Source of the DNA: a virus
Lineage: Duplodnaviria > Heunggongvirae > Uroviricota > Caudoviricetes
Strand: one strand, 5' to 3'
DNA length: 64,000 nucleotides
IMG/VR virus record: IMGVR_UViG_3300028833_000069
Part shown: one piece after another, positions 4,643 through 51,899 of the stretch
Layout of the letters: each line of letters begins with the position of its first letter
Position numbering within the stretch: the first letter of the stretch is position 1
Notes under the pieces: generated by a model
Databases searched by the model: none
What the model was told of the DNA's origin: nothing
The model's input: the letters and a program-made list of their open reading frames with translations, nothing else
Program-made: the position numbers and the translations under genes

Positions 4643-4978
4643 TTATACATTTGGATTGTTATCAACTAATAAGAGGTTTTGCTCTGCAACAACCATATAT
4701 CCTGATTCAAAGAATACTGGTCTTGCACCTCTTATATCAAATAAAACATTGTCACCTTTATGAACAACCTCACATTTATTACCAACTGCTATAACTTTAC
4801 CCCACTTAAATGGTTGCTCTTTATAATCTAATTGGCCACTGTCAGGATTTTCAAATTCACCACCTGTTATTTCAAACTCATCAGCAGCAGCTTTTTTCTC
4901 ATAAGGATTGAATTCATAAGGGTCTACTAACAAATTAGTAAACACTGGTATAAAATTGTCTGTCATATCATTAAGCAT
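4643..4978 (-). CDS. GroES-like co-chaperonin
   Basis: 111 aa. The segment GKVIAVGN..VHKGDNVLF..YMVVAEQNLL resembles the GroES mobile-loop and roof region. It is adjacent to the GroEL-like gene. Confidence 0.5.
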   Translation of the reverse strand: MLNDMTDNFIPVFTNLLVDPYEFNPYEKKAAADEFEITGGEFENPDSGQLDYKEQPFKWGKVIAVGNKCEVVHKGDNVLFDIRGARPVFFESGYMVVAEQNLLLVDNNPNV

Positions 4979-6431
4979 TTAAAATTAAACAAGAACATGT
5001 TAAAATAATAGAAGCTGTATTAACAGCATTCTCTAAAGAAGTTTTTACAACTTCATATGGGTCTATTACACCTTCTTCATATAAATCACCAACCCATTCT
5101 CTAGTTTTAAAATTATATCCTGACCAGTTCATTGAAGCTGGAAGTAATTTACATTCTCCCGCACCAAAACAGTTTCTATATAATATATAATAAGGAGTAG
5201 TAAGTACATCCTTTAAATATTTTAATTCAGTACTTAATGCAATAGATGCTCTAAACAAAGCAGAGCCACCACCTGGAAGTACACCACCTCTTAAAGCAGC
5301 TCTTGTAGCACCAACAGCATCTTCTACTCTGTCTAATCTTTCTTTAACTTCTATTTCAGAATATCCTCCAACATAAATAGTCGCAATACCTGCTGTAAAA
5401 TTAGCAAGTCTTTTTCTCTGAAATTCTAAATCAGCTTCTTCAAGATTTCCTTTTTCTAAAAGTCCTTGGATAGCATTTACTTTTTCAGTAATAGCTTCCT
5501 CATTACTTTTATATCCAACAAAAGTACAAGTATCAGCAGTAGCAATTACTTTATCACAATAAAGTGTTTCTCCAAGAATATCTTTAATATCAGAAAGCAG
5601 AATACTTCTCTGAATACCAAAGTTAGGTGCTACTACCATACAAGAATCTAATTTATGTAAGTTATTTAAAAGATTTATTTTTATCTCAGAGTCAAAATCA
5701 GGAGCAATTAGCAACAGAGCCTTTTTCTTTCTGAGAGCTTCATTAGCTACCTCAGCAACTTTAGTTATCTCACTAATCTTTACATCTGAGATGTATACCA
5801 TTACATTTTGAAGTACACATGTATTCTCAGCAGTATTTACAAATCTTGAATCAAAATAACCATTGTCAAATTGAAAGCCTTCTGAAAATTCAATACCATC
5901 TGAGTTTGTCTTAGATTTCTCAAATTTAACAATCCCATTCTTACCTACTTTCTTGAAAGCATCTGCTACAAGTGTACCAATTTTAATATCATTATTGGCT
6001 GAAAGAGTTGCTACCTTAACAAGGTCTTTTTCAGTAATATCTCTTTTATATTCTTTCAACCAATTAACCACTTTTTCACAATCTTCTTGTAAATCTCTTT
6101 GGATTTGAATAGGATTTTCCCTACTATCTGCAAGAAGCTTTACAATTTCCCTAGAAAGAATAGTAGCAGTAGTACTACCATCACCAACATCACTAGATGT
6201 TTTCCTAGAAATATCTCTCACTGCATCAATACCCATTTGTACATAAGGGTCTTCATGAGTTACATAAGTAGCTACTGTACTACCATCTTTAGTGACATGT
6301 AAATGTCTACCAAGTTTAATCATTACATTCCTACCACTTGGTCCATAAGTAGCAGCTACACAATCAGAAACAAGATTAACACCTTTAATCAAGTTCTTTT
6401 TACATTCATCATTAAATTGTACATGTTCCAT
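4971..6431 (-). CDS. GroEL-like chaperonin (Cpn60 family)
   Basis: 486 aa. GDGSTTATIL matches the GroEL GDGTTTATVL ATP-binding motif. TYGPSGRNVMI and LPGGG segments are also present. Confidence 0.75.
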   Translation of the reverse strand: MEHVQFNDECKKNLIKGVNLVSDCVAATYGPSGRNVMIKLGRHLHVTKDGSTVATYVTHEDPYVQMGIDAVRDISRKTSSDVGDGSTTATILSREIVKLLADSRENPIQIQRDLQEDCEKVVNWLKEYKRDITEKDLVKVATLSANNDIKIGTLVADAFKKVGKNGIVKFEKSKTNSDGIEFSEGFQFDNGYFDSRFVNTAENTCVLQNVMVYISDVKISEITKVAEVANEALRKKKALLLIAPDFDSEIKINLLNNLHKLDSCMVVAPNFGIQRSILLSDIKDILGETLYCDKVIATADTCTFVGYKSNEEAITEKVNAIQGLLEKGNLEEADLEFQRKRLANFTAGIATIYVGGYSEIEVKERLDRVEDAVGATRAALRGGVLPGGGSALFRASIALSTELKYLKDVLTTPYYILYRNCFGAGECKLLPASMNWSGYNFKTREWVGDLYEEGVIDPYEVVKTSLENAVNTASIILTCSCLILNA

Positions 6432-9240: not shown

Positions 9241-9312
9241 TACACCTAGAATACCCCACTAATTAAAAAAATCTAATACTGTTGTAAGATTCATCTTTGT
9301 TATTTTCTCTAG

Positions 9313-9384
9313 AGCACCCTCCCAGAATCGAACTGAGATCTTTGGGTTACAAAGCCAAGGTAATAACCATTATACTAAGAGTGC
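9313..9384 (-). tRNA. tRNA-Thr(UGU)
   Basis: Cloverleaf with acceptor GCACTCT/AGGGTGC, T-loop TTCGATT and anticodon loop TTTGTAA. The anticodon stem has one mismatch. Confidence 0.55.
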
Positions 9385-9393
9385 ATAAATGTG

Positions 9394-9465
9394 CTGGCAG
9401 TACTGGAATCGAACCAGTATTGAGTGGTTAACAGCCACCTGTAATAACCTTTATACTAACTACCA
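9394..9465 (-). tRNA. tRNA-Asn(GUU)
   Basis: Acceptor TGGTAGT/ACTGCCA, anticodon stem GGTGG/CCACT, loop CTGTTAA, T-arm ACTGG-TTCGATT-CCAGT. Confidence 0.65.
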
Positions 9466-9471
9466 ATAAAG

Positions 9472-9547
9472 TGGATCTAGAGGAGACTCGAACCCTCAAC
9501 CTGCTGGTTGCAAACCAGCTGCTCTAGCCAATTGGAGCTATAGACCC
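9472..9547 (-). tRNA. tRNA-Ala(UGC)
   Basis: Acceptor GGGTCTA/TAGATCC, D-arm GCTC..GAGC, anticodon stem GCTGG/CCAGC, loop TTTGCAA. Confidence 0.65.
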
Positions 9548-9552
9548 AAAAG

Positions 9553-9626
9553 TAGTCTGGCTTGGATTTGAACCAAGGACCTCCATCTTATCAGGATGAC
9601 AATCTAACCAACTGATATACCAGACT
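9553..9626 (-). tRNA. tRNA-Ile(GAU)
   Basis: Perfect acceptor AGTCTGG/CCAGACT, anticodon loop CTGATAA, T-arm CTTGG-TTCAAAT-CCAAG. Confidence 0.7.
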
Positions 9627-9631
9627 ATGTG

Positions 9632-9706
9632 CGGTGTGTAGGGGATTTGAACCCCTGACTTCCTGCGTGACAGGCAGGCACTCTAGACCAGCTGAGCTAA
9701 CACACC
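9632..9706 (-). tRNA. tRNA-Asp(GUC)
   Basis: Acceptor GGTGTGT/ACACACC, anticodon stem CCTGC/GCAGG, loop CTGTCAC, T-arm AGGGG-TTCAAAT-CCCCT. Confidence 0.7.
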
Positions 9707-9713
9707 ATATAAG

Positions 9714-9787
9714 ACACACTGATGAGATTTGAACTCATGAATAGCAGTTTTGCAGACTGCCCCCTTAGACCACTTGGGTACAGTGTG
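9714..9787 (-). tRNA. tRNA-Cys(GCA)
   Basis: Acceptor CACACTG/CAGTGTG, anticodon stem GCAGT/ACTGC, loop CTGCAAA, T-arm ATGAG-TTCAAAT-CTCAT. Confidence 0.65.
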
Positions 9788-9790
9788 ATG

Positions 9791-9873
9791 TGGGAGTTGA
9801 GTGAGTCGAACACCCAGAGGCTAAGCCAAATGATTTACAGTCATCCCTGCTACCACTTACAGAATAAACTCCC
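9791..9873 (-). tRNA. tRNA-Tyr(GUA), class II
   Basis: Acceptor GGGAGTT/AACTCCC, anticodon loop CTGTAAA, long variable arm TGGCTTAGCCTCT, T-loop TTCGACT. Confidence 0.65.
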
Positions 9874-9880
9874 TAAATTG

Positions 9881-9953
9881 TCTGGATAGGAAGATTTGAA
9901 CTCCCGACCCCTTGCTCCCAAAGCAAGTGTTCTACCTACTGAACTACATCCAG
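9881..9953 (-). tRNA. tRNA-Pro(UGG)
   Basis: Acceptor CTGGATG/TATCCAG, D-arm GTTC..GAAC, anticodon stem CTTGC/GCAAG, loop TTTGGGA. Confidence 0.65.
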
Positions 9954-9959
9954 ATTATG

Positions 9960-10033
9960 TGCAGTAAAAAAGACTCGAACTCTCCCTCCCAGAATGGAAA
10001 TCTGGTGTGCTGAACCACTGACACTACTACTGC
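9960..10033 (-). tRNA. tRNA-Gly(UCC)
   Basis: Acceptor GCAGTAG/TTACTGC, anticodon stem CCAGA/TCTGG, loop TTTCCAT, T-loop TTCGAGT. Confidence 0.6.
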
Positions 10034-10038
10034 ATAAG

Positions 10039-10112
10039 AGCAATATAAAGGATTTGAACCCTCACTTCCTGACTGGCAGTCAAGTGTGCTAACCATTAAA
10101 CACTAATATTGC
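10039..10112 (-). tRNA. tRNA-Gly(GCC)
   Basis: Acceptor GCAATAT/ATATTGC, anticodon loop CTGCCAG, T-arm GAGGG-TTCAAAT-CCTTT. Confidence 0.55.
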
Positions 10113-10117
10113 ATAAG

Positions 10118-10148
10118 TTGCGGGGGTGGGACTCGAACCCACAACCTT
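10118..10148 (-). pseudogene. orphan 3' half of an initiator-like tRNA (T-arm GTGGG-TTCGAGT-CCCAC plus acceptor 3' strand CCCCGCA-A)
   Basis: The 3' end resembles bacterial tRNA-fMet (..CCCCCGCAAC). No matching 5' acceptor strand (TGCGGGG) exists nearby. The upstream sequence is the HNH coding region. Confidence 0.4.
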
Positions 10149-10380
10149 AAATTTTAGATTCTTGAAAATGATGCCATTGATGACAATTAGGACAAAGTAA
10201 AATACATTTATTCATTTCAGCTTTAATTTTGTCAAAGCTTAAATTACCTACTTCAGAACCACTAAAATCAAAAGATTTAGTAGAAGGATCTATATGATGA
10301 AACTATAGTATTTCAGGATGTTCTTTCCATCCACAAATAGCACAACATTTATCTTCTTTATACTTACGAAGAAAATTCAT
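10147..10380 (-). CDS. HNH homing endonuclease (77 aa) with one in-frame TAG
   Basis: Manual translation gives MNFLRKYKEDKCCAICGWKEHPEIL[TAG]FHHIDPSTKSF...NLS...LLCPNCHQWHHF. This is the CxxC...HH...N...CxxCH...H His-Me finger. TAG lies at 10303-10305. The gene sits between two Met-type tRNA sequences. Confidence 0.6.
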
Positions 10381-10453
10381 TCTTTTTTCTCTTCTTTTTC
10401 TGAAGTATTCTGTTCTTTTTCTCTAGTCTTTATACATAATTATAATTTTTAAG

Positions 10454-10525
10454 TTGCGCACGCAGGACTCGAACCTGGTCTAATGCTTATGAGACATTTA
10501 AGCTACCATTTGCTCCACCAGCGCA
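10454..10525 (-). tRNA. tRNA-Met(CAU) (elongator or Ile2-type; acceptor has 5 bp plus 2 mismatches)
   Basis: Anticodon stem AATGT/GCATT, loop CTCATAA, T-loop TTCGAGT, D-arm GAGC..GCTT. Confidence 0.5.
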
Positions 10526-14866: not shown

Positions 14867-14882
14867 ATCTATTATAATTTAG

Positions 14883-14972
14883 TAGCCCCTGAGGGACTCG
14901 AACCCTCACAACCTCCAACAGAAGGATATAACAGTTTTAGAGACTGGTGTACTGCCATTATACTAAGGGGCA
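14883..14972 (-). tRNA. suppressor tRNA with anticodon CUA (reads UAG), class II with long variable arm
   Basis: Anticodon stem CAGT/ACTG with a 7-nt loop CTCTAAA (U33, CUA at 34-36, A37). The anticodon is complementary to plus 14938-14940 tag. D-arm GTAT-AATGGCA-GTAC. Variable arm of about 23 nt with a CCTTC/GGAGG stem. T-arm GAGGG-TTCGAGT-CCCTC. Acceptor GCCCCT/AGGGGC with a 1:72 mismatch. Confidence 0.6.
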
Positions 14973-38243: not shown

Positions 38244-38578
38244 AATTCATAGTATCATTACAGAGCGTTGGAGATGTTATCACTAACAGTTCTTCTGAAG
38301 TATTTGTTATTGCAGGAGATGCTCATGATAAGAAACAAATAATCAATGTTTGTAAATCTTTTATTGAGCAGGAAGGTAGTTCTGGAATTGGTGGTGAATG
38401 TACAGTTAAACTTTTAGAAAGAAAAGAACTTCTTGCACATCCATACAGACATGGAATTACTGTTGAGAAATATAAAGGTTTACCTGGTCCATTTATAGTT
38501 ATAGATATTGATTGGAACAGAGAAATGTCTATAGAATGGATAAAAGGTCACTTTGATATAATTGAAACAATAGTATGA
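38230..38578 (+). CDS. paralog family member 2 (LQSVGDVITNSSSEVFVI)
   Basis: Track ORF 38189..38578. The likely start is MKFIVSLQ at 38230. Confidence 0.5.
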
Positions 38579-39009
38579 AATCTCTATTTATTATTCCTAT
38601 ACAAAGTGTATCTGATATAATAACAAACAGCTCTTCTGAAATGTTTGTTGCTATTGCACCAAAAGATAGTAATTATAGTGTTTTTATCATTGAAAAAATT
38701 CTTGAAGATATTCATAAAGAAGATCGAAAGAAGGTTGAAGATTATTACAAGTCCTGTAATAATTGGCAACAGACATTAGATTACATGGATACTACTAGAC
38801 TTGATTCTGGAAGTGGAGATGGTGGGGAATGTGACATTGAGGTACTCACATGGAAAGAAATTTCTCATTATATTAGAAAATGTAATAGGTCTAAATATGA
38901 TAAAAAGAATGGAGTTTATCTTAAAATTGAAATAGATCATAATAGAAAAAGGTCTATTGATTGGATAAGAAATAACTTAGATGTTGTTTATTTTGAAGAT
39001 CATTCATAA
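38575..39009 (+). CDS. paralog family member 3 (IQSVSDIITNSSSEMFVA)
   Basis: The C-terminus shares NR..SI.WI with member 2. Confidence 0.5.
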   Translation: MKSLFIIPIQSVSDIITNSSSEMFVAIAPKDSNYSVFIIEKILEDIHKEDRKKVEDYYKSCNNWQQTLDYMDTTRLDSGSGDGGECDIEVLTWKEISHYIRKCNRSKYDKKNGVYLKIEIDHNRKRSIDWIRNNLDVVYFEDHS

Positions 39010-39893
39010 TGAAAGACTTTACTCATTTTGGTGTTAAGCAAAGGAAATTTCCAGAATATAACTATAATGCTATATGGACTAATTTGAAAACAATAAGGTT
39101 AGGTAACGGCTATGCAAAAGAGCTACCACCTAATTGTGCAGAATTCTATGATGTTTCATTAGGTACTAAGTGTAATCTGGAATGTCCTTTCTGTTATACT
39201 AACGCTCTACATACTGGGGAGTTCTATAAAGATGTTTGTGAAAAAGCTAAAAGATTTTTTGGAATGATGTCTAACAATCAAAAGCCATTTCAAATAGCTA
39301 TTGGTAGTCAGGGAGAACCTACTATTCATCCAGAATTTATTGCTTTTTTACAGACTATTTATGAACTTAGGATTGTGCCTAACTATACTACTAATGGTAT
39401 TACTTTAGCTTCTGGTAATAAAGAGTTATTAGATGCTACAGAGAAGTACTGTGGTGGTGTAGCAGTATCTGCAAATACTTGGAATCCTACTATTAACAAT
39501 ATTTGGAAACAGGCAGTGGAAAACTTGATGAAGATTGATATAAATATCAATTTACATTATGTTATTTCAGACAAAGAATCTGTTGATAGGTTTATTAGGG
39601 AGGTATATCCATATGCAGATAATATTTTGTACTTTGTATTACTTCCCTTGATGAATTCAGGAAGAAGTACAAGTAAATACACAGAGGATGCTTTTGAGTA
39701 TCTTCTTTCAAAAGATTTAGATTGGTCTAAAATTGCTTTTGGTGCTCATTTCTATGACTTACTTAAAAAGCAAGATAAACTTAAATGCTGGTTATACCCA
39801 CCTGAAAGTTTGTCAAAAAATCTAATTCTTGGTGATAAAATAACAATAACAAAGAGTTCTTTTCATAAAGAACCTATTTGGCAAGAAGAATGA
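39009..39893 (+). CDS. radical SAM protein
   Basis: CNLECPFC (C-x3-C-x2-C) cluster near the N-terminus. 294 aa. Confidence 0.55.
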   Translation: MKDFTHFGVKQRKFPEYNYNAIWTNLKTIRLGNGYAKELPPNCAEFYDVSLGTKCNLECPFCYTNALHTGEFYKDVCEKAKRFFGMMSNNQKPFQIAIGSQGEPTIHPEFIAFLQTIYELRIVPNYTTNGITLASGNKELLDATEKYCGGVAVSANTWNPTINNIWKQAVENLMKIDININLHYVISDKESVDRFIREVYPYADNILYFVLLPLMNSGRSTSKYTEDAFEYLLSKDLDWSKIAFGAHFYDLLKKQDKLKCWLYPPESLSKNLILGDKITITKSSFHKEPIWQEE

Positions 39894-40717
39894 AATATAA
39901 TTTTAAAGCAAAAGAAACTACTGAAGGTATTATTGCATTCATAAAAGCATGGTTTGATCAAAATGGACCAGGATGTAATGCAGTAGTTGGTATTTCTGGA
40001 GGTAAAGATTCTACTATTGTAGCAAAACTTTGTGTTGAAGCTCTTGGTAGTGACAGAGTTATAGGAGTAATGCTTCCTAATAATCATCAACATGATTTAG
40101 ATGTTGCTAAAGAAGTATGTCAGTATTTAGGTATTAAAAGCCATTTAATTGACATTGCAAGCACTTTTGAAGATGTTAGATGTAGTATTGAGGATGAGAC
40201 TAAAAAGTCACTCTCAGAACAAGCTCTGACTAATCTTGCACCTAGAATCAGAATGACTTATCTTAGAGCATATGCACAGTGTTTTAATGGTAGACTGATC
40301 AACACTTCTAATCTTAGTGAAGATTGGGTTGGTTATGCAACTGTTGATGGTGACAGTGCAGGAGATATGTCTCCATTGTGTTTACTTACTGTACAAGAGG
40401 TAAAAGCAATTGGACATTATCTTGGTATACCTGATAAGTTTGTAGAGAAAGTTCCTGAAGATGGTCTTGTTGGTAAATCTGATGAAGACAATCTTGGTGT
40501 AACTTATGCTGCAATAGATAAGTGGATTAGAGAAGGTATTTGTGATGAAAAAGATCTTCAAGTAATTAACAAGAAATTCCAAGCAAATAAATTCAAGATT
40601 GTAAAGATGGCAGGTATGCCATGTTTCTGGCCTGAATATGATATGCTTTTTGAAGGAACTCCTGATAAGGAATTTGTTTCAAAACTTGGAATGGCACAAG
40701 ATCCTAGATTACAATGA
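39878..40717 (+). CDS. nadE: NH3-dependent NAD+ synthetase
   Basis: PP-loop VVGISGGKDSTIVAKL, then TRMTYLRAYA...GTSN-like and GDMSPLCLLTVQEV segments as in NadE. Confidence 0.7.
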   Translation: MARRMKYNFKAKETTEGIIAFIKAWFDQNGPGCNAVVGISGGKDSTIVAKLCVEALGSDRVIGVMLPNNHQHDLDVAKEVCQYLGIKSHLIDIASTFEDVRCSIEDETKKSLSEQALTNLAPRIRMTYLRAYAQCFNGRLINTSNLSEDWVGYATVDGDSAGDMSPLCLLTVQEVKAIGHYLGIPDKFVEKVPEDGLVGKSDEDNLGVTYAAIDKWIREGICDEKDLQVINKKFQANKFKIVKMAGMPCFWPEYDMLFEGTPDKEFVSKLGMAQDPRLQ

Positions 40718-41259
40718 AAAAAGTTCTTATTATAATTGATTGCCAAAATGACTTCTGTAAAGAAGGTGGTGCTCTTGCAAATAAAGAATGTATTGGAGCA
40801 GTAGATAATCTTTGTAAAGATTTTAACAAAATCTGGGAAAAAGATATGACTGTTCTTGTTACAAGAGATACTCATCAAAGGAAATCTTATTTTGGAACTG
40901 TTGAAGGTAAACATTTACCAATTCTTCATTGTGTTCAAGATAGTGCAGGTTGGTGTTTAAGAGATGATCTTGCTGCTAAGCTTGATACACTTGGAGTTAA
41001 TTACACATATATTGACAAACCTACATTTGGATTTGATAGTTGGAAAGGTATTATTGGTGTTGTACCTTTTGACGGAATGGAAATTCATATTGTTGGAGTT
41101 TGTACTGATATTTGTGTAGTAACAAATGCTTTACTTTTGAAGACAGCATATCCTAGTGCAGAAGTATATGTACATACAGATTATACTGCTGGTACATCTA
41201 TTGAAGCACATACAGCTGCTATTAAGACAATGAAAAGTTGTCACATTAACTGTATATGA
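40714..41259 (+). CDS. pncA: nicotinamidase (isochorismatase family)
   Basis: LIIIDCQNDFC...GG, TRDTH and the catalytic Cys segment VGVCTDICV align with PncA. Confidence 0.65.
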   Translation: MKKVLIIIDCQNDFCKEGGALANKECIGAVDNLCKDFNKIWEKDMTVLVTRDTHQRKSYFGTVEGKHLPILHCVQDSAGWCLRDDLAAKLDTLGVNYTYIDKPTFGFDSWKGIIGVVPFDGMEIHIVGVCTDICVVTNALLLKTAYPSAEVYVHTDYTAGTSIEAHTAAIKTMKSCHINCI

Positions 41260-41450
41260 GTGATAAAGTAAATAATGGTTGCACAGTGAGCTTAACACCA
41301 TTTATGCTAATTTTCATTCTATTCTTTATAGCTAAATGCTTTAAGTTAATAGAATGGAGTTGGTGGTGGGTGTTTAGCCCATTGTGGATACCTACACTTA
41401 TTCTTCTTGTAATATTTATAGTTTACATACTATTAAAATGCTTTCTGTAA
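41256..41450 (+). CDS. small membrane protein
   Basis: 64-aa hydrophobic ORF. Confidence 0.3.
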   Translation: MSDKVNNGCTVSLTPFMLIFILFFIAKCFKLIEWSWWWVFSPLWIPTLILLVIFIVYILLKCFL

Positions 41451-42271
41451 ATAACATACCTGTAAAGGTTGAGCATTTCCAAGATAATACACAAAAAATT
41501 AACTTACCTGAATTTGAAAGTAATGTTTTCAATATTAAATGGAAATATTCAAATGATGAAGAGTTAGTTACACTTGTATATATTTGTGGTTATCTTAGAG
41601 ATAATTATCAAGATTGTACAATAACCTTGGAAATGTTATATGTTCCTAATGCCAGAATGGATAGAGTAGAAGAAAGAGGTGATGTATTTACCTTAAAGTA
41701 TTTCTGCAATATTATTAACAGTTTACAATTTGAAAGTGTAACAGTATTTGATACTCATTCAAAAGTAACTGATGCTCTGGTAGATAGGATGAACAAAATA
41801 TCTACTGAAGAACTATTACAAAAAGTACTTGACATTATACATGTTGGCTATTTTGATAATAAGTTTAAAAGTATGACTATAGTATTCCCTGATAGAGGTG
41901 CTTATGATAGATACAGTACTCTTGAAATTCTTAAACCTTTTAGAAAGATTATAGGAAATAAGTCAAGAGACTGGAAAACAGGCACTTTGCAAGATCAGGA
42001 GTTATATGGAGTAGATAATTTAGAAACAGGAGTTCCTGTACTAATTATTGATGACATATTATCTTCTGGTGGAACTGTTTGTAAAACAATTGCAAATATT
42101 AGGGAAGTTGTTAACTGCCCAATTTATGTATATGTTTCTCACTGTGAAAATAAGCTTATAGAAAATGATACAGAAAATTGGGAATACATACAGAAAAATG
42201 TAAATAAGTTATACACAACTAATGGGATTTACTCATGTGATTGTGAAAAAATTCAAAAAATTGTATGGTAA
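41438..42271 (+). CDS. PRPP-synthetase-like phosphoribosyltransferase (divergent Prs; alternatively an ADP-ribose pyrophosphokinase-like enzyme)
   Basis: YVPNARMDRVEERGD (compare Prs PYFGYARQDR), FDTHS (compare DLHA) and the PRPP-binding loop VLIIDDILSSGGT. The track ORF begins at 41384. Confidence 0.55.
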   Translation: MLSVNNIPVKVEHFQDNTQKINLPEFESNVFNIKWKYSNDEELVTLVYICGYLRDNYQDCTITLEMLYVPNARMDRVEERGDVFTLKYFCNIINSLQFESVTVFDTHSKVTDALVDRMNKISTEELLQKVLDIIHVGYFDNKFKSMTIVFPDRGAYDRYSTLEILKPFRKIIGNKSRDWKTGTLQDQELYGVDNLETGVPVLIIDDILSSGGTVCKTIANIREVVNCPIYVYVSHCENKLIENDTENWEYIQKNVNKLYTTNGIYSCDCEKIQKIVW

Positions 42272-43446
42272 ATGTAAATACTGCAAGTATGTTGGATAAT
42301 GATCTCTATAAGTTTAGCATGAGCTATGCTTATATGAAATTATTTCCAGAAGCAGAAGGTACATTTGAATTCTGTGATAGAAATAAAACAGTTTATACAA
42401 GTGAGTTTGTTCAAGCTCTTTCCTCAGAGCTGCATAAACTTGCTGAAAGAATGTTACTGTCAACAGAAAGAAGTTGGTGTGTTAAACACATACAGTATAT
42501 TCCTGAGTGGTATTGGGAATGGTTAGAATCTTTCTATTTCAATCCTAATCTTATTAAGGTCTCTCTTACTAAGGAAGGAATGTTGAATATAGCAGTAACT
42601 GATAAACTGTATAAGGTAACTTTGTATGAAGTACCAATTCTATACACAGTAGCAGAACTCTGCTATAAATTTTCTGGTACAGAATTGTCTCATGAGCAAT
42701 TCAAAGAGATAATTAGTAAGACAGAGAGTAAATGTAAGATTGCTGATGAAGCAGAAATGTTTTTCTCTGAATTTGGTACTAGAAGAAGATTCAGTTATGA
42801 AGTACAAGACATTGTAATTAAAACTTGTAAGAGTTGTTCTCACTGTGTTGGTACTTCTAATGTACATTTTGCAATGAAATATGACATGAAGCCTATTGGT
42901 ACTGTTGCACATGAGTGGGTTATGTTCCACGGTGCAATGTATGGCTACAATGAGGCTAATTACATGGCATATAAGAATTGGGTAAAGGTTTATGATGGTA
43001 ATCTTGGTATTGCCTTAACTGATACCTATACCTCTGATGTCTTTTTCAAGAATTTTTCTTTACAACATGCAAAATTGTTTGATGGTATAAGACAAGATTC
43101 TGGTGATGAAAAAGAATTTGTAGAGAAAGCTTTAGTAAAGTATAACGAGTTGGGAATCAATCCACTTACTAAAACTATTGTTTTCTCAAATGCTCTTGAT
43201 TTCCCAAAAGCTGCAACTATAGCAGAATACTGTAAAGGAAAGATAAAAGCTTCCTTTGGTATTGGTACAAATCTGACTAATGATATTGATGGTATAAAAC
43301 CACAAAATATTGTTATGAAACTTATGCAATGCAGAATGAACAACAAACAAAGTTGGATGCATTGTGTAAAAATTTCAGATGATAAAGGTAAGGTAATGGG
43401 AAATCCTGATGAAATTAAAACTGCCTTTTACAAATTAGGTCTATGA
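42265..43446 (+). CDS. pncB: nicotinate phosphoribosyltransferase
   Basis: Collinear with E. coli PncB: LDNDLYKFSM, FGTRRRFSYEVQD, VGTSN, GTVAHEW, LGIALTD, RQDSGDE, VFSNALD, SFGIGT, KPQNIVMKL. Confidence 0.75.
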   Translation: MVNVNTASMLDNDLYKFSMSYAYMKLFPEAEGTFEFCDRNKTVYTSEFVQALSSELHKLAERMLLSTERSWCVKHIQYIPEWYWEWLESFYFNPNLIKVSLTKEGMLNIAVTDKLYKVTLYEVPILYTVAELCYKFSGTELSHEQFKEIISKTESKCKIADEAEMFFSEFGTRRRFSYEVQDIVIKTCKSCSHCVGTSNVHFAMKYDMKPIGTVAHEWVMFHGAMYGYNEANYMAYKNWVKVYDGNLGIALTDTYTSDVFFKNFSLQHAKLFDGIRQDSGDEKEFVEKALVKYNELGINPLTKTIVFSNALDFPKAATIAEYCKGKIKASFGIGTNLTNDIDGIKPQNIVMKLMQCRMNNKQSWMHCVKISDDKGKVMGNPDEIKTAFYKLGL

Positions 43447-43928
43447 AAAATTTTCCAGTAGATTATGAAGGAAAAACCTACTGGATTAGTAGGTCTGTAG
43501 CTGTTGCAGGTTTCATCTTTAGAAAAGATAATAATGGTAATTTACTAGTACTTGCTAACAAAAGAGGACCAGGTTGTCCTGATAATGTTGGCAAGTGGGT
43601 ATGCCCATGTGGTTATCTTGACTATGGAGAAACCCTCAAGCAAGCTATTGTAAGAGAAATCCATGAAGAAACAGGAGTAACTATCCCAATAAGTATATTG
43701 AGACTGGTTAGAATTGATGATGTACCAGAAGGTAGACAAAATGTAACAATTGAGTTTATTGCTGATGCAGGTGTCTTAACTCCTGAATGTGTTGCTTTAT
43801 CTAAAGAATTCTGTGAAAAGGATGAAGTAGATGAAGTTATGTGGATGCCAGTAGCTAACATAGATGAGTATGAATGGGCATTTAATCATGATAAACTTAT
43901 TAAAGATTTTCAATGTTACCTAAAGTAG
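43443..43928 (+). CDS. Nudix hydrolase
   Basis: Nudix box GYLDYGETLKQAIVREIHEETGV. The gene ends on TAG at 43926-43928. Confidence 0.65.
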   Translation: MKNFPVDYEGKTYWISRSVAVAGFIFRKDNNGNLLVLANKRGPGCPDNVGKWVCPCGYLDYGETLKQAIVREIHEETGVTIPISILRLVRIDDVPEGRQNVTIEFIADAGVLTPECVALSKEFCEKDEVDEVMWMPVANIDEYEWAFNHDKLIKDFQCYLK

Positions 43929-44503
43929 CTCACCTATTTTTAACAGCAAAATGTTCAAATAATTGTCCAAAATGCTGTAACAACAATTACACTGTAGATG
44001 AGATTCCTTTCTTAACAGAAGAGGAATTCTCTACAGTGGAAACTGTTTGTTTAACAGGAGGAGAACCATTCCTTCTTGACAACCTAGAAGAAATAGTAAA
44101 TGTTATAAGACCACATGTCAGAAACATTTATGTATACACTTCAGGTACTGAATTATTATCTTATCTAGGAAAGCATGAGCTTCCCTTCATAAACGGCATT
44201 TCCTTTAGTCCTAAGAGCAGAAAAGATTGGGATAGTATAACTACACTAACCAAAAATATTATGCTCTTAAAAAGGATTTCTGAAAAGGATAATAGATTGT
44301 ATATATTCTTAAAACAAGAAGATAGAGCAAACTATACATTGGATCGTTTTGGTCCAAGACTAAGAACAATTGAGTATTTAGCAGATGCACTGAATGCTAA
44401 AATGTATTTTAGGACTTGGCTAGATGAGATAACTTCTCCTGATGGAGAAATCTTTAGAAGAATTAACTTAGAAGACATGAAGAAATGGAAAAAGAAAGAA
44501 TAG
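43913..44503 (+). CDS. small radical SAM protein (activase/QueE-like size)
   Basis: CSNNCPKC cluster and LTGGEPFL. 196 aa. Confidence 0.5.
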   Translation: MLPKVAHLFLTAKCSNNCPKCCNNNYTVDEIPFLTEEEFSTVETVCLTGGEPFLLDNLEEIVNVIRPHVRNIYVYTSGTELLSYLGKHELPFINGISFSPKSRKDWDSITTLTKNIMLLKRISEKDNRLYIFLKQEDRANYTLDRFGPRLRTIEYLADALNAKMYFRTWLDEITSPDGEIFRRINLEDMKKWKKKE

Positions 44504-45108
44504 CAATTTTTGGAGGTTCTTTTAATCCAATTCATAAGGGACATCTTGACATAATTAGCGCTCTTACTAATAGGATGTGCTTTATGGGTTCTTATTATTC
44601 AGAAGTTTGGGTAAGTGTTACACCACAAAACCCATTAAAACCTGAATCAGGTAATTTCTGGGATAGATTTAAGATGGTAAAAGATGCTCTAAATGATAGA
44701 TTCACTGGAAATGCTACATTTAAATATGTTGTTCCTACTTTTATCCAAGGTTGTACAAATCTAATCTTTATGTCTAATACTCTTAGAACTTTGAAAGAAG
44801 TTTATCCAGAGTATGAGTTTGAGCTTGTAATAGGAGCTGATTGTTTAGAGAGTTTTAATAAATGGCATGATTACCAGTATATTATTGATAATTTTGATAT
44901 TGTTATTATTGATCGAGAAGGTTATGTAACAGAAGTACCTAGTTATTTTAATAAAAGTAGAGTAACTCATTTAAAACTTAATAATACAATTAGTTCCACA
45001 CAAGTAAGAAATCTTATTAAAGAGAATAATCCTGAATGGGAAAAATTAGTTGTATCTTCAACAGTAAAAACAATTAAAGATAAAAAGCTATATGAATATA
45101 GTAAATAA
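44485..45108 (+). CDS. nadD: nicotinate-nucleotide adenylyltransferase
   Basis: IAIFGGSFNPIHKGHL is the (H/T)xGH nucleotidyltransferase motif at a NadD-like position. 207 aa. Confidence 0.65.
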   Translation: MEKERIAIFGGSFNPIHKGHLDIISALTNRMCFMGSYYSEVWVSVTPQNPLKPESGNFWDRFKMVKDALNDRFTGNATFKYVVPTFIQGCTNLIFMSNTLRTLKEVYPEYEFELVIGADCLESFNKWHDYQYIIDNFDIVIIDREGYVTEVPSYFNKSRVTHLKLNNTISSTQVRNLIKENNPEWEKLVVSSTVKTIKDKKLYEYSK

Positions 45109-45589
45109 AACAGGTAATTTATTAGATGCTACTACAGACATTATTATGCATCAAGTCAATGATGCAGGTGTAATGGGAAGTGGTGTTGCAGCAGCAATTG
45201 CTCATAAGTGGCCTTATGTGCAACAACAATACACAGTTGCTCAACAGCAAGGGCATCTTAAATTAGGAGAAATCATTATGTCTTGCACAAGTGAGTTTCC
45301 TGATAGTAAATGTCACCCATTAGTAGCTAATTTATGTGCTCAAGATTTGTATCAGAGAGAACACTCTTTCTTGAGTACAGGTATTCCTACAAGCTATGAT
45401 GCTTTGTGGATGTGTCTAACTAAACTTGCAAGATATTGTAAAGAGAATGGTTTTAGTACTATTGCTATGCCATATCTTATGAGTTCTTGTAGAGGTGGTG
45501 CTAATTGGAATGTAGTAATTACTATGGTTCAAGAAGCTTTTTATGATTTAGAAGGTACAATCGAGGTTTGGCAGTTGCCAGCCCACTAA
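45092..45589 (+). CDS. macro domain (ADP-ribose binding/processing) protein
   Basis: GNLLDATTDIIMHQVNDAGVMGSGVAAAI matches the macro-domain signature. Confidence 0.6.
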   Translation: MNIVNKTGNLLDATTDIIMHQVNDAGVMGSGVAAAIAHKWPYVQQQYTVAQQQGHLKLGEIIMSCTSEFPDSKCHPLVANLCAQDLYQREHSFLSTGIPTSYDALWMCLTKLARYCKENGFSTIAMPYLMSSCRGGANWNVVITMVQEAFYDLEGTIEVWQLPAH

Positions 45590-45867
45590 ACATATATTTT
45601 ATGATAACCATCAAAGTTGTATTTGTTCAGCAACCTTTATCTGAACAGGAAGCCTCGCGGTTAAGAAACTATACTTTTGCAGTTGAAACTGTTGCTGGAA
45701 TGGAACTACATGTGGGTGATTGTCTACAAACAGAAAGATATAGTTCCCTTCTACAAGTTCGAGAAGTAATAAATGAGCAGTATGAGTACTATAGTCCTGT
45801 TACAGGTGAATTGAGCAGAGAAGCTAGACCTGGTTACTTGCAGCTCAAACTGCTAAAAGTACATTGA
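45568..45867 (+). CDS. hypothetical protein
   Basis: Track ORF with slightly GC-richer codons. Confidence 0.35.
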   Translation: MAVASPLNIYFMITIKVVFVQQPLSEQEASRLRNYTFAVETVAGMELHVGDCLQTERYSSLLQVREVINEQYEYYSPVTGELSREARPGYLQLKLLKVH

Positions 45868-48652: not shown

Positions 48653-48728
48653 GACATCTTAGCTCAGTTGGTATTAGAGCACCTCACCTTTAATGAGGGG
48701 GTCCTGGGTTCAAATCCCAGAGGTGTCA
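48653..48728 (+). tRNA. tRNA-Lys(UUU) with unusual C at position 33
   Basis: Acceptor GACATCT/AGGTGTC, D-arm GCTC-AGTTGGTATTA-GAGC, perfect anticodon stem CCTCA/TGAGG, loop CCTTTAA, T-arm CTGGG-TTCAAAT-CCCAG. Confidence 0.55.
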
Positions 48729-48745
48729 CTAAAAATAAATATAAA

Positions 48746-51452: not shown

Positions 51453-51899
51453 ATGGATATTGGAAGTAGAAATGGCTATCCTAGTGCAGCATTATCAAAT
51501 TTTGCACCACATCCATTTATGATAGATGGAGTTGGATGTAATTCAATGGAAGGGTTTTTGCAGTCACTGAAGTTTGAGTCAATTGACATGCAAAAATATG
51601 TATGTACTTTAGTTGGTAAAGCTGCCAAATTTAAAGGAAAAGATAAGAAGTGGTGGAAAACTCAAACATTATATTGGTTAGGACAACCTATTGCTCGTCA
51701 GTCTGATGAATATCAAAAATTATTAGATAGAGCATATAATGCATTAAATGAGAATCCAGGATTTAGAAAAGCATTAGAAGCAACAAAGGGATGTACATTG
51801 ACACATTCTATTGGAAAGACTGACAAAACAAAAACAATATTAACTCAATCAGAGTTTTGCTCAAGATTAACAAAACTTAGAGATATTGGAAAATTGTAA
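51453..51899 (+). CDS. NADAR (YbiA/DUF1768) domain protein
   Basis: LSNFAPHPFMIDGVGCNSMEGFLQSLKF...WW...YWLGQPIARQ fits the NADAR signature (SNF..pF..dG..y.S.E..fQ..KF). Confidence 0.6.
   Translation: MDIGSRNGYPSAALSNFAPHPFMIDGVGCNSMEGFLQSLKFESIDMQKYVCTLVGKAAKFKGKDKKWWKTQTLYWLGQPIARQSDEYQKLLDRAYNALNENPGFRKALEATKGCTLTHSIGKTDKTKTILTQSEFCSRLTKLRDIGKL

What the first reader, a model, noticed from the sequence alone, without database searches (positions are those of the whole stretch)
39878..45589. Contiguous phage-encoded NAD+ cluster: complete deamidated (Preiss-Handler) salvage route plus ADP-ribose-processing enzymes
Seven adjacent genes encode NadE, PncA, a Prs-like PRPP-type enzyme, PncB, a Nudix hydrolase, NadD and a macro domain. 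Together these can convert nicotinamide to NAD+ (Nam to Na to NaMN to NaAD to NAD+). The ribose-phosphate donor can come from ADP-ribose via Nudix and Prs. NADase-type anti-phage effectors (Thoeris, SIR2, DSR families) produce ADP-ribose plus nicotinamide. The cluster can therefore rebuild NAD+ from exactly those products. Published phage NAD-reconstitution pathways are two-enzyme shortcuts. A full five-step deamidated route in one phage block would be a distinct, more elaborate counter-defence or metabolic takeover module. PncC (61948-62439) and NADAR (51453-51899) extend the theme.
Basis: partly seen in the sequence, partly recalled or inferred. Interest (0 to 1): 0.85.

Follow-up and report, generated by a model that had tools for sequence, protein, structure and literature searches.

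The report
Phage NAD+ rebuilding cluster, deamidated route
A gut (Bacteroidales-type) phage carries one tight gene block that looks able to rebuild NAD+ from the debris left by bacterial NAD-destroying defences, through nicotinic-acid intermediates; this combination of parts was not described in the papers I could search.

Summary
Window 39890-45589 (+) encodes NadE, a nicotinamidase (PncA), a PRPS-like enzyme, a genuine nicotinate phosphoribosyltransferase (PncB), a Nudix hydrolase, NadD and a macro domain. PncC and a gp30.3/NADAR gene lie downstream, as stated.

The interpretation needs three corrections.
- The "Prs-like" gene fails every curated Prs threshold. It nests inside the phage Adps family (ADP-ribose pyrophosphokinase of NARP1), but three conserved ATP-donor residues are changed towards Prs-like ones.
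- The Nudix is closest to ADP-ribose-specific Nudix domains. The macro belongs to the family embedded in NARP1-AP operons (ADPR-1''-phosphate phosphatase), not to DarG.
- Phage pncB-nadD-nadE clusters were already reported in 2024.

What seems new is the hybrid: ADPR-handling enzymes feeding a Preiss-Handler back end. Gene order is identical in every relative found (81% and 86% lineages).

The nearest Adps homologues sit in a widespread module, PncA-Adps-Namat-like-(macro)-NadE. Its Namat-like enzyme has lost the nicotinamide-binding Asp in 59 of 59 cases, against Asp in 28 of 28 canonical Namats. That points to an undescribed nicotinate-based branch of NAD+ reconstitution. The window cluster is a rare derivative of it.

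Nothing is biochemically proven.

The parts
39009..39893 (+). Radical SAM protein (294 aa) whose stop overlaps the NadE start. Whether it belongs to the module is uncertain.
   Evidence: PF04055 8.1e-10, CxxxCxxC motif. Conserved at 81% identity and in the same position in L003/L004. A 28%-identical homologue follows NadE in L042/L044.
39890..40717 (+). NadE, an NH3-dependent NAD+ synthetase (275 aa, no glutaminase domain): NaAD -> NAD+.
   Evidence: PF02540 8.6e-48; TIGR00552 151.8 bits, above its 63.65 cutoff; QueC only 29 bits. It is 53% identical to the NadE of the PncA-Adps-Namat*-NadE modules.
40714..41259 (+). PncA nicotinamidase: nicotinamide -> nicotinate.
   Evidence: PF00857 6.5e-16. 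The best PDB hits are nicotinamidases: 1ilw at 2e-9 and 3pl1. Catalytic D9/K102/C134 and metal ligands D52/H54/H72 are invariant in 60 distinct phage homologues.
41256..41450 (+). 64-aa predicted membrane protein of unknown role.
   Evidence: phrog_1374 2.3e-13. Conserved in the same position in L003/L099/L100.
41438..42271 (+). Adps-derived PRPS-like pyrophosphokinase (277 aa). Its proposed role is ADPR -> ADPR-PP, or R5P -> PRPP if it has drifted back towards Prs activity.
   Evidence: TIGR01251 score is 69.5 bits against a cutoff of 113. Validated ICP1 Adps scores 98 and E. coli Prs scores 423 on the same model. Pairwise bit scores: 132-182 to module-I Adps, 127 to the Bacillus phage NARP1 Adps, 78 to ICP1 Adps, 38 to E. 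coli Prs. A neighbour-joining tree nests it inside the Adps clade. It lacks the Prs C-terminal helices. Donor-site residues I194/C215/F221 are L/L/V here.
42265..43446 (+). PncB, a nicotinate phosphoribosyltransferase: Na + PRPP -> NaMN.
   Evidence: TIGR01514 410.9 bits, above its 269.55 cutoff. PDB 2im5 (P. gingivalis NaPRT) 8e-116. It is 53% identical to Bacteroides pyogenes PncB. There is no lineage-specific indel relative to the PncBs of Adps-less phages.
43443..43928 (+). Nudix hydrolase of the ADP-ribose type. Its proposed role is ADPR-PP -> PRPP + AMP, or ADPR -> R5P + AMP.
   Evidence: PF00293 4.8e-16. A family profile hits the Francisella NadM Nudix (ADPRase) domain 2qjt best (5e-10), followed by the ADPR-binding NrtR structures 3gz8/3gz5. 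NudC converts ADPR-PP to PRPP in vitro (bioRxiv 10.1101/2024.02.11.579819).
43913..44503 (+). Small radical-SAM-like protein (196 aa, CX3CX2C at residues 14-21). Its role is unknown.
   Evidence: PF04055 0.0026 (below threshold); phrog_31524 7e-11. Conserved at 68% identity in the same slot in relatives.
44485..45108 (+). NadD, a nicotinate-mononucleotide adenylyltransferase: NaMN -> NaAD.
   Evidence: PF01467 6.6e-16; TIGR00482 105.3 bits, just under its 112.45 cutoff. HxGH and ISSTxxR motifs are visible in the translation. The slot is kept in L003, but the protein there is only 35% identical.
45092..45589 (+). Macro domain, probably an ADPR-1''-phosphate phosphatase (Adpp-like).
   Evidence: PF01661 8.4e-07; phrog_335 'phosphatase' 3.2e-26. 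It is homologous to the macro embedded in the Adps-macro-Namat operon of Vibrio phage 1.063.O, and to the macros of the PncA-Adps-Namat*-NadE modules. Gln aligns where DarG has its Lys-containing PTKKHW stretch.
45568..45867 (+). 99-aa ORF of unknown function that closes the block.
   Evidence: No Pfam hit. It is 78% identical in L003/L004 in the same position.
61948..62439 (+). PncC/CinA-type NMN deamidase (NMN -> NaMN). It would feed NMN into the same deamidated route.
   Evidence: PF02464 1.6e-47.
51453..51899 (+). gp30.3/AdfN-type NADAR domain. It is a DNA ADP-ribosyl glycohydrolase in T4, so it belongs to the ADP-ribose theme rather than to NAD+ synthesis.
   Evidence: PF08010 3.5e-57. 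The gp30.3 = AdfN NADAR function comes from bioRxiv 10.1101/2024.07.11.602962.

Best explanation
The block is an early-expressed phage module that rebuilds NAD+ from what NAD-cleaving defence enzymes leave behind, using nicotinic-acid (deamidated) intermediates.

Proposed flow:
1. PncA turns nicotinamide into nicotinate.
2. The macro domain removes the 1''-phosphate from ADPR-1''-P (the product of RES-type NAD+ phosphorolysis) to give ADPR.
3. The Adps-derived kinase and the ADP-ribose-type Nudix together convert ADPR plus ATP into PRPP plus 2 AMP. I favour Adps first (ADPR -> ADPR-PP) and Nudix second (ADPR-PP -> PRPP + AMP). The reverse order (ADPR -> R5P, then R5P -> PRPP) is not excluded.
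4. PncB joins nicotinate to PRPP, giving NaMN.
5. NadD adenylates NaMN, giving NaAD.
6. NadE amidates NaAD, giving NAD+.
7. The distal PncC can feed NMN into the same stream.

Shown here: the family identity of each enzyme, the conservation of catalytic residues in PncA, conserved gene order in relatives, and descent of the kinase from the Adps family. Inferred: every substrate assignment, the order of the Adps and Nudix steps, the counter-defence role, and early expression.
For: - Family assignments are given.
- Almost all neighbouring genes overlap start to stop.
- Gene order is identical in all relatives found: the 81% lineage (L003/L004/L098-L100) and the 86% lineage (L101).
- The kinase and PncB are among the best-conserved genes of the block, at 81% identity. 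NadE is 64%, PncA 56% and NadD 35% identical. This argues that the kinase is under selection even though no Namat is present anywhere in the window.
- The kinase groups with Adps and not with Prs.
- Among its 80 nearest IMG/VR homologues, 78 are not window-type, and all but a few of those sit in PncA-Adps-Namat-like-(macro)-NadE modules.
- In these modules the Namat-like protein has Ala or Ser in 59 of 59 distinct sequences at the nicotinamide-binding Asp. That Asp is present in 28 of 28 canonical Namats. It defines nicotinamide specificity in NAMPT and Namat (PMC7096376, PMC4919578, PMC12774641).
- So the lineage the window cluster derives from already appears committed to nicotinate -> NaAD -> NadE. 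Here PncB + Nudix + NadD occupy the Namat slot and can supply the same product, NaAD.
- The Nudix profile is closest to ADPR-specific Nudix domains. A Nudix enzyme (NudC) has been shown to cut ADPR-PP to PRPP.
- The macro is homologous to macros embedded in NARP1-AP-style operons and lacks the DarG lysine. Such macros are ADPR-1''-P phosphatases that rescue NARP1 from aRES defence (bioRxiv 10.64898/2026.01.28.702374).
- Retention of NadD, and even its replacement by a different NadD in L003, argues that NaMN is a real intermediate.
Against: - There is no biochemical or expression data for any of these proteins.
- Three donor-site residues are near-invariant in 82 Adps sequences (I194, C215, F221 in ICP1 numbering). 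They are L, L and V/I in this lineage, and the PP loop reads like a Prs loop. The enzyme may no longer be an Adps.
- phrog_619 does not separate Adps from Prs: E. coli Prs scores the same 193 bits as the window protein.
- The neighbour-joining tree has no support values and has long branches.
- Nudix specificity cannot be read from sequence.
- An ADPRase acting directly on ADPR would compete with an Adps for the same substrate.
- NadD is just below its equivalog cutoff.
- Two conserved ORFs inside the block (the 64-aa membrane protein and the small radical SAM) have no place in the scheme.
- The route costs far more ATP than NARP1, and I can give no demonstrated reason for preferring it.
- Adps-less phage clusters (Nudix-PncA-PncB-NadE, L005-L013) show that the Preiss-Handler part can stand alone as plain NAD+ supply.
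Confidence: 0.58

Rival explanations
1. The block is plain auxiliary metabolism. It is a host-derived Preiss-Handler salvage set (plus a PRPP-supply enzyme) that raises NAD+ for phage NAD-dependent enzymes and replication in general. It has no specific tie to defence NADases. The macro and Nudix genes are unrelated neighbours.
For: - PncB is an ordinary NaPRT, 53% identical to Bacteroides PncB.
- pncB-nadD-nadE clusters in gut jumbo phages have been interpreted this way (PMC11662467).
- Adps-less phage clusters carrying PncA-PncB-NadE exist (L005-L013).
Against: - The kinase descends from Adps, whose only known substrate is the NADase product ADPR.
- The macro belongs to the family that dephosphorylates the RES product ADPR-1''-P.
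- The Nudix is of the ADPR type.
- All three are kept in fixed order with the salvage genes in every relative.
Confidence: 0.2
2. The ADP-ribose enzymes (macro, Nudix, NADAR) do not serve salvage. They serve to destroy ADPR-derived immune signals or to reverse ADP-ribosylation of phage DNA or proteins (anti-Thoeris or anti-DarT type). The NAD+ genes merely sit next to them in an anti-defence island.
For: - The macro's NCBIfam hit is the DarG antitoxin macro domain, at 64.6 bits.
- gp30.3/NADAR is a proven anti-DarTG1 factor.
- Viral macro, NADAR and Nudix domains have been proposed to target soluble ADPR-derived signals (PMC9503650).
Against: - The DarG score is far below its cutoff of 250, and an invariant Gln aligns where DarG has its Lys-containing PTKKHW stretch.
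- Homologous macros are embedded between Adps and Namat, or between Namat-like and NadE, in dozens of loci.
- The Nudix co-occurs with PncB in several independent phage lineages.
- The two roles are not mutually exclusive.
Confidence: 0.12
3. This is a direct deamido-NARP1. PncB itself accepts ADPR-PP and joins it to nicotinate, giving NaAD in one step. NadE then amidates NaAD. On this reading the Nudix and NadD are accessory.
For: - The PRTase gene sits directly after, and overlaps, the Adps-like gene, exactly as Namat does in NARP1.
- The related modules appear to make NaAD directly.
Against: - PncB shows no insertion, deletion or clamp-like element. Only 11 lineage-specific substitutions separate it from the PncBs of Adps-less phages.
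- It belongs to a different branch of the family from Namat (phrog_448 only 8e-15).
- NadD is retained in every relative, and was even replaced by another NadD. That makes little sense if NaMN is never formed.
Confidence: 0.06

Closest known systems
NARP1 / NARP1-AP (Adps + Namat, with the macro phosphatase Adpp); Osterman et al. 2024 and 2026
   Same: - It has a PRPS-like enzyme of the Adps lineage, immediately followed by a phosphoribosyltransferase gene.
- It has a macro domain of the family found inside Adps-macro-Namat operons.
- It has the same presumed inputs: ADPR, ADPR-1''-P and nicotinamide.
   Different: - No Namat is present in the block or anywhere in the window.
- The transferase is a true NaPRT (PncB).
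- Four further enzymes (PncA, Nudix, NadD, NadE) are needed.
- The intermediates are deamidated (Na, NaMN, NaAD).
- The Adps-like enzyme has altered donor-site residues.
Preiss-Handler clusters of gut 'NAD-jumbo phages' (pncB-nadD-nadE, Kuafu clade; Li et al. 2024, PMC11662467)
   Same: - Phage-encoded pncB, nadD and nadE are clustered together.
- The setting is a gut phage associated with Bacteroidota.
- The assignment rests on bioinformatics only.
   Different: - That report does not mention an Adps/PRPS-like gene, a Nudix, a macro or any link to NADase products.
- The nearest relative contig here is 169 kb, so jumbo status is not established.
PncA-Adps-Namat-like-(macro)-NadE modules found here in IMG/VR (L002, L019-L096). 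I found no description of them in the literature.
   Same: - The PncA, Adps, macro and NadE are orthologous, at 35-53% identity.
- PncA-Adps adjacency is kept.
- The presumed end steps are the same (NaAD -> NAD+).
   Different: - Those modules use a single Namat-like enzyme with Ala or Ser at the nicotinamide-binding Asp.
- They lack PncB, Nudix and NadD.
- In the window lineage those three genes occupy the Namat-like slot.
NARP2 (NadV + NMN adenylyltransferase, phage KVP40) and NARP3 (PnuC + NadR)
   Same: They are phage-encoded and rebuild NAD+ with canonical salvage enzymes and PRPP or nicotinamide riboside.
   Different: - Those routes are amidated, through NMN.
- No NadV, NadM, NadR or PnuC was found in the window.

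Membership tests
NARP1 | A PRPS-like enzyme of the Adps family (pyrophosphorylates ADPR, not R5P). | tested here: inconclusive
   By similarity, tree and context it lies in the Adps clade, and it is below Prs cutoffs just as validated Adps is. However, donor-site residues I194/C215/F221 are changed. Activity cannot be tested here.
NARP1 | An adjacent Namat: NAMPT fold, nicotinamide-binding Asp, GSxΦxΦxΦTRD adenine clamp. | tested here: not met
   The adjacent transferase is PncB (TIGR01514 410.9 bits). tblastn with three Namat or Namat-like queries finds nothing in the window.
NARP1-AP | An operon-associated macro domain of the Poa1p-like ADPR-1''-P phosphatase type. | tested here: met
   It falls in the same PHROG (phrog_335) as the macro inside the Adps-macro-Namat operon of Vibrio phage 1.063.O, and aligns with it. 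A profile also reaches Poa1p structures at 3e-13, though BT1257 and DarG score higher. Phosphatase activity itself is not testable here.
Ribose-phosphate diphosphokinase (Prs) | A score above the curated family cutoffs, plus the C-terminal regulatory helices. | tested here: not met
   TIGR01251 scores 69.5 bits against a cutoff of 113, and all NCBIfam Prs equivalogs are far below cutoff. E. coli Prs scores 423 bits as a control. The C-terminal roughly 35 residues of E. coli Prs are absent.
Preiss-Handler pathway | PncB (NaPRT). | tested here: met
   TIGR01514 410.9 bits, above its 269.55 cutoff; NF003704 413 bits, above its 379 cutoff. PDB NaPRT 2im5 8e-116.
Preiss-Handler pathway | NadD (NaMN adenylyltransferase). 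| tested here: inconclusive
   PF01467 passes. TIGR00482 scores 105.3 bits against a cutoff of 112.45. Nucleotidyltransferase motifs are present. Preference for NaMN over NMN is not testable here.
Preiss-Handler pathway | NadE (NAD+ synthetase). | tested here: met
   PF02540 8.6e-48; TIGR00552 151.8 bits, above its 63.65 cutoff; QueC scores much lower.
Nicotinamidase (PncA) | Isochorismatase fold with the Asp-Lys-Cys triad and Asp/His/His metal site. | tested here: met
   PF00857 passes. Alignment to P. horikoshii nicotinamidase 1ilw places D9, D52, H54, H72, K102 and C134. All six are invariant in 60 phage homologues. The NF008623 equivalog is below cutoff.
DarG-type antitoxin macro domain | A score above the family cutoff, plus the catalytic lysine stretch (PTKKHW). 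| tested here: not met
   NF048014 scores 64.6 bits against a cutoff of 250. An invariant Gln aligns in the Lys-containing PTKKHW stretch of DarG. Which of those lysines is catalytic rests on my memory.
NARP2 | NadV-type nicotinamide PRTase plus an NMN adenylyltransferase (NadM/NatV). | tested here: not met
   No NAMPT-like sequence is present in the window. The adenylyltransferase scores as NadD, while NadM/archaeal NMNAT models score 25-30 bits.
NARP3 | PnuC transporter plus NadR. | tested here: not met
   No such Pfam families were found among the roughly 99 window ORFs scanned.
NAD-jumbo phage (Li et al. 2024) | A phage genome above 200 kb encoding a complete NAD+ pathway. | not testable with these tools
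   The pathway is complete, but only 64 kb is available. The closest relative contig is 169 kb.

The most novel reading that the evidence does not exclude
The window cluster and the much commoner PncA-Adps-Namat-like(Asp->Ala/Ser)-macro-NadE modules together define an undescribed, nicotinate-based branch of phage NAD+ reconstitution. In the common form, a re-specified Namat would ligate nicotinate to ADPR-PP, giving NaAD, and NadE would finish the job. In the window lineage that single enzyme has been displaced by PncB + Nudix + NadD. An Adps-derived kinase with a remodelled donor pocket and an ADPR-type Nudix would then turn ADP-ribose into PRPP. That route from ADPR to PRPP has not been described in vivo.
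Probability: 0.45. Interest if true: 0.8.

Novelty: new variant of a known kind. Interest (0 to 1): 0.68.

Why it matters
NAD+ depletion is one of the commonest bacterial anti-phage strategies. The known phage answers (NARP1, NARP1-AP, NARP2, NARP3) all run through amidated intermediates.

A deamidated answer would matter for three reasons:
- It would show that phages of gut Bacteroidales, whose hosts salvage through nicotinate, tailor the counter-measure to host metabolism.
- It would reveal a way to recycle ADP-ribose into PRPP.
- It would give a simple sequence rule for predicting nicotinate- versus nicotinamide-using Namat enzymes: the Asp-to-Ala/Ser switch together with PncA/NadE linkage.

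It also supplies testable enzymes for NAD-precursor biocatalysis. If instead the block is ordinary salvage borrowed from the host, it merely adds one more example to the 2024 'NAD-jumbo phage' catalogue.

Tried and rejected
- **DNA similarity to known phages.** Megablast of the block against 50,697 phage records found nothing, so no annotated close relative exists.
- **phrog_619 as an Adps marker.** Rejected, because E. coli Prs scores the same 193 bits.
- **PP-loop sequence as an Adps/Prs discriminator.** Rejected. Canonical NARP1 Adps proteins carry both GGT- and AAS-type loops.
- **PDB search for an Adps structure to compare with.** The ICP1 Adps entries are not in the PDB copy, and only Prs chains were hit.
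- **Promoter and terminator scan.** It found 60 promoter-like sites against 60.9 expected and no convincing + strand terminator. It is uninformative, and the sigma-70 consensus is probably wrong for this host.
- **SPbetaL8 as a source of the founding Adps.** The region around its macro gene holds no NARP1 genes.
- **phAPEC8-type phages.** Their macro is not adjacent to NAD genes, so a macro alone does not prove linkage.
- **The metagenome scan.** It added only the source contig and a relative already known.
- **The idea that PncB is a disguised Namat or NadV.** Rejected.
- **The idea that NadE is QueC.** Rejected.
- **Structure prediction.** Not used, because no available library would separate Adps from Prs or give Nudix substrate specificity.

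Full report
**1. What is there**

On the + strand, a run of tightly packed, mostly overlapping ORFs extends from RtcB (35936) to 45867.
- NadE (39890-40717): PF02540 8.6e-48; TIGR00552 151.8 bits against a cutoff of 63.65.
- An isochorismatase-fold protein (40714-41259).
- A PRPS-like protein (41438-42271).
- PncB (42265-43446): TIGR01514 410.9 bits against a cutoff of 269.55.
- A Nudix hydrolase (43443-43928).
- NadD (44485-45108): TIGR00482 105.3 bits against a cutoff of 112.45.
- A macro domain (45092-45589).

A 64-aa membrane ORF (41256-41450) and a 196-aa radical-SAM-like ORF (43913-44503) lie inside the block. A 294-aa radical SAM gene (39009-39893) overlaps the NadE start.

PncC (61948-62439) is a CinA domain, PF02464 1.6e-47. 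The ORF at 51453-51899 is T4 gp30.3 (PF08010 3.5e-57), which has been shown experimentally to be the NADAR enzyme AdfN.

No other NAD-related Pfam family was found among 69 further ORFs. No second copy of any cluster gene and no NAMPT/Namat-like sequence occurs in the window.

**2. It is a phage, probably of Bacteroidales**

- The window holds a large terminase, tail-like proteins, an exonuclease and 24 tRNA genes.
- IMG/VR holds relatives on contigs of 89 and 169 kb.
- PncB's best solved homologue is the Porphyromonas gingivalis enzyme (8e-116).
- Its nearest cellular relatives found by the genome scan are Bacteroides pyogenes (53%) and a Bacteroidales MAG.

**3. PncA is a nicotinamidase**

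Its best solved homologues are nicotinamidases: 1ilw at 2e-9 and M. tuberculosis PncA 3pl1. The catalytic Asp-Lys-Cys triad (D9, K102, C134) and the Asp/His/His metal site (D52, H54, H72) are invariant across 60 distinct phage homologues.

**4. PncB is ordinary**

Compared with the PncBs of seven phage contigs that lack any Adps-like gene, the window lineage shows 137 fully invariant columns. It has only 11 lineage-specific substitutions and no distinguishing insertion or deletion. This disfavours the idea that PncB has been converted to use ADPR-PP directly.

**5. The 'Prs-like' gene is an Adps descendant**

*Scores against curated models.*
- It misses every curated Prs threshold. TIGR01251 gives 69.5 bits against a cutoff of 113.
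- The biochemically validated Adps of Vibrio phage ICP1 behaves the same way (98 bits), as does the Adps of a Bacillus phage NARP1 operon (98.5 bits). E. coli Prs scores 423 bits (the ICP1 enzyme is described in PMC13586617).

*Pairwise similarity and tree.*
- Pairwise bit scores are 132-182 to the Adps of related gut-phage modules, 127 to the Bacillus phage Adps, 78 to ICP1 Adps and 38 to E. coli Prs.
- In a neighbour-joining tree rooted on E. coli Prs, two archaeal Prs fragments branch outside. All 85 phage sequences form one clade, and the window lineage is nested within the gut-phage subclade. The tree has no support values.
- The protein lacks the C-terminal helices of bacterial Prs.

*Cautions.*
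- phrog_619 does not discriminate, because E. coli Prs also scores 193 bits.
- Three ATP-donor contact residues of Adps are near-invariant in 82 Adps sequences: Ile194, Cys215 and the lid residue Phe221 in ICP1 numbering. In the three window-type proteins they are Leu, Leu and Val/Ile.
- The PP loop, DDILSSGGTVCK, reads much like E. coli Prs, DDMIDTGGTLCK.
- The enzyme may therefore have kept, altered or partly reverted its specificity.

**6. The Nudix and the macro point to ADP-ribose chemistry**

*Nudix.* A profile built from the NAD-cluster-associated phage Nudix proteins hits the ADP-ribose pyrophosphatase domain of Francisella NadM best (2qjt, 5e-10). The ADPR-binding NrtR structures come next.

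*Macro.*
- It shares phrog_335 and aligns along its full length with the macro that lies between Adps and Namat in Vibrio phage 1.063.O. That is the layout of NARP1-AP.
- In NARP1-AP the macro (Adpp) was shown to dephosphorylate ADPR-1''-phosphate, so that NARP1 can overcome the RES-domain defence aRES.
- A profile of these phage macros reaches Poa1p at 3e-13.
- The same profile aligns an invariant Gln within the Lys-containing PTKKHW stretch of DarG. The DarG family score is far below its cutoff, 64.6 against 250.

**7. Relatives**

*Close relatives.* The 5.8-billion-protein search found only two close clusters, at 86% and 81% identity. Everything else is at or below 42%.

Every close relative keeps the same order: (rSAM)-NadE-PncA-(TM)-Adps-like-PncB-Nudix-rSAM-NadD-macro-orf99.

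Conservation across the block is uneven:
- rSAM1, the kinase and PncB are 81% identical.
- The Nudix is 71% and the macro 70% identical.
- NadE is 64% and PncA 56% identical.
- NadD is only 35% identical, so that cassette was exchanged while its slot was kept.

*Distant relatives of the kinase.* These are the most informative.
- Of its 80 nearest IMG/VR loci, 78 are not window-type. All but a few of those carry PncA-Adps-(RtcB)-NAMPT-like-(macro)-NadE, with no PncB, NadD or Nudix within 8 kb.
- The NAMPT-like protein starts the Namat adenine-clamp motif (GSFSMQ...), then carries an insertion before [FY]TRD.
- At the position of the nicotinamide-binding Asp it has Ala (55) or Ser (4) in all 59 distinct sequences. 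This Asp is Asp215 of SPbetaL1 Namat and Asp219 of human NAMPT.
- All 28 canonical Namats have Asp there. These are ICP1, the Bacillus phage and 25 IMG/VR loci. The 25 IMG/VR loci, which I scanned, have no PncA or NadE within 6 kb.

*Why that Asp matters.* It is reported to define NAMPT substrate specificity, and D219S switches substrate affinity (PMC7096376, PMC4919578). D215A cuts Namat activity eight-fold (PMC12774641).

The simplest reading is that these modules ligate nicotinate to ADPR-PP, giving NaAD, which NadE amidates. I found no paper that combines Adps or Namat with nicotinamidase or NAD synthetase.

*Adps-less clusters.* A separate set of phage contigs carries Nudix-PncA-PncB-NadE(-NadD) without Adps (L005-L013).

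*Origin of the window block.* Its NadE, PncA, kinase and macro are closest to the first module type. Its PncB and Nudix are closest to the second. The block therefore looks like a hybrid in which PncB + Nudix + NadD replaced the single Namat-like enzyme.

**8. Mechanism**

The replaced enzyme's presumed inputs are nicotinate and ADPR-PP, and its presumed output is NaAD. The three replacing enzymes can deliver exactly this:
- The Nudix cuts ADPR-PP to PRPP + AMP. NudC has been shown to carry out this reaction in vitro.
- PncB makes NaMN.
- NadD makes NaAD.

The alternative order gives the same net reaction. In it, the Nudix first makes R5P and the kinase then acts as a Prs. The donor-site substitutions make that order plausible.

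Retention of NadD argues against direct use of ADPR-PP by PncB.

The macro would admit ADPR-1''-P, and the distal PncC would admit NMN. All known NAD+ cleavage products would thus converge on one deamidated trunk. None of this has been tested biochemically.

**9. Novelty**

Phage Preiss-Handler clusters (pncB-nadD-nadE) were reported in gut jumbo phages of Bacteroidota in 2024. That report gave no link to ADPR-handling enzymes. NARP1-AP has three genes, and NARP3 uses PnuC + NadR.

The specific architecture, and the nicotinate-based family behind it, appear to be undescribed. I rate this a new variant of a known kind.

**10. Expression timing (inference)**

The terminase gene contains three in-frame TAG codons, and a suppressor tRNA with anticodon CUA is encoded at 14882-14972. 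The NAD block has no in-frame TAG, and two of its genes use TAG as their stop codon. This fits expression before any TAG recoding sets in, and so fits an early, counter-defence role.

Noticed in passing
window 1085-3382 (-), 14882-14972 (-), 48653-48729 (+): The large terminase gene reads as one 765-codon frame only if three in-frame TAG codons (at 3250, 2851 and 1993) are translated. The window encodes a suppressor tRNA with anticodon CUA, and another with anticodon UUA. This suggests TAG stop-codon recoding in late genes.
   Followed up: partly
window 9312-10525 (-) and scattered on the + strand: There are 24 tRNA genes in 64 kb, including a tight array of 11 on the - strand.
   Followed up: no
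L002 and L019-L096 (IMG/VR; for example L002:7917-13167): A widespread module, PncA-Adps-Namat-like-(macro)-NadE, occurs in these loci. The Namat-like enzyme has Ala or Ser in 59 of 59 distinct sequences at the nicotinamide-binding Asp, against Asp in 28 of 28 canonical Namats. Its adenine-clamp motif carries an insertion of roughly 9-30 aa. It is probably a nicotinate-using NARP1 variant, which I did not find described.
   Followed up: partly
L005-L013 (IMG/VR): Other phage contigs carry Nudix-PncA-PncB-NadE(-NadD) clusters without any Adps-like gene. Their PncB is 55-62% identical to the window's.
   Followed up: partly
window 41438-42271; ICP1 Adps positions 194, 215, 221: Donor-site residues Ile, Cys and Phe are near-invariant in 82 Adps sequences. 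They are Leu, Leu and Val/Ile in the three window-type proteins, and the PP loop resembles that of E. coli Prs.
   Followed up: partly
window 44485-45108 vs L003:10221-10853: NadD is only 35% identical between the window and its 81%-identity relative, although the flanking genes are 68-81% identical. This indicates a cassette exchange with the slot preserved. In the 86% lineage (L101) the Nudix is 98% identical to the window's, while the kinase is 86% identical. That points to a recombination mosaic.
   Followed up: no
window 37647-38243, 38189-38578, 38575-39009 (+): Three consecutive paralogous ORFs share an N-terminal motif, ..QSV(S/G)D(I/V)ITNSSSE(L/V/M)FV.., and lie directly upstream of the radical SAM gene at 39009-39893. 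They have no family hit and their function is unknown.
   Followed up: no
window 35936-37650 (+); L037, L041, L045 and others: RtcB RNA ligase (PF01139 5.4e-64) and a YqeY-like protein (PF09424 3.5e-32) lie upstream in the same gene run. In many related loci, RtcB is inserted between Adps and the Namat-like gene.
   Followed up: no
window 43913-44503 and 41256-41450 (+): A small radical-SAM-like protein and a 64-aa membrane protein are conserved inside the NAD block in all close relatives, but have no role in any NAD pathway I can propose.
   Followed up: partly
L079 and L025 (IMG/VR): L079 shows PncA-Adps-NadE with no room for a Namat-like gene between them. L025 shows an Adps-like gene with none of the partner genes within 8 kb.
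   Followed up: no
window 4971-6431 (-), 31074-32936 (+), and unmapped ORFs: The window also encodes a Cpn60-type chaperonin, a 620-aa SPFH/Band 7 protein, an NT5C-type 5'-nucleotidase, an Amidase_3 (probable endolysin) and a GNAT acetyltransferase. The last three were detected in a pooled scan and were not mapped to coordinates.
   Followed up: no
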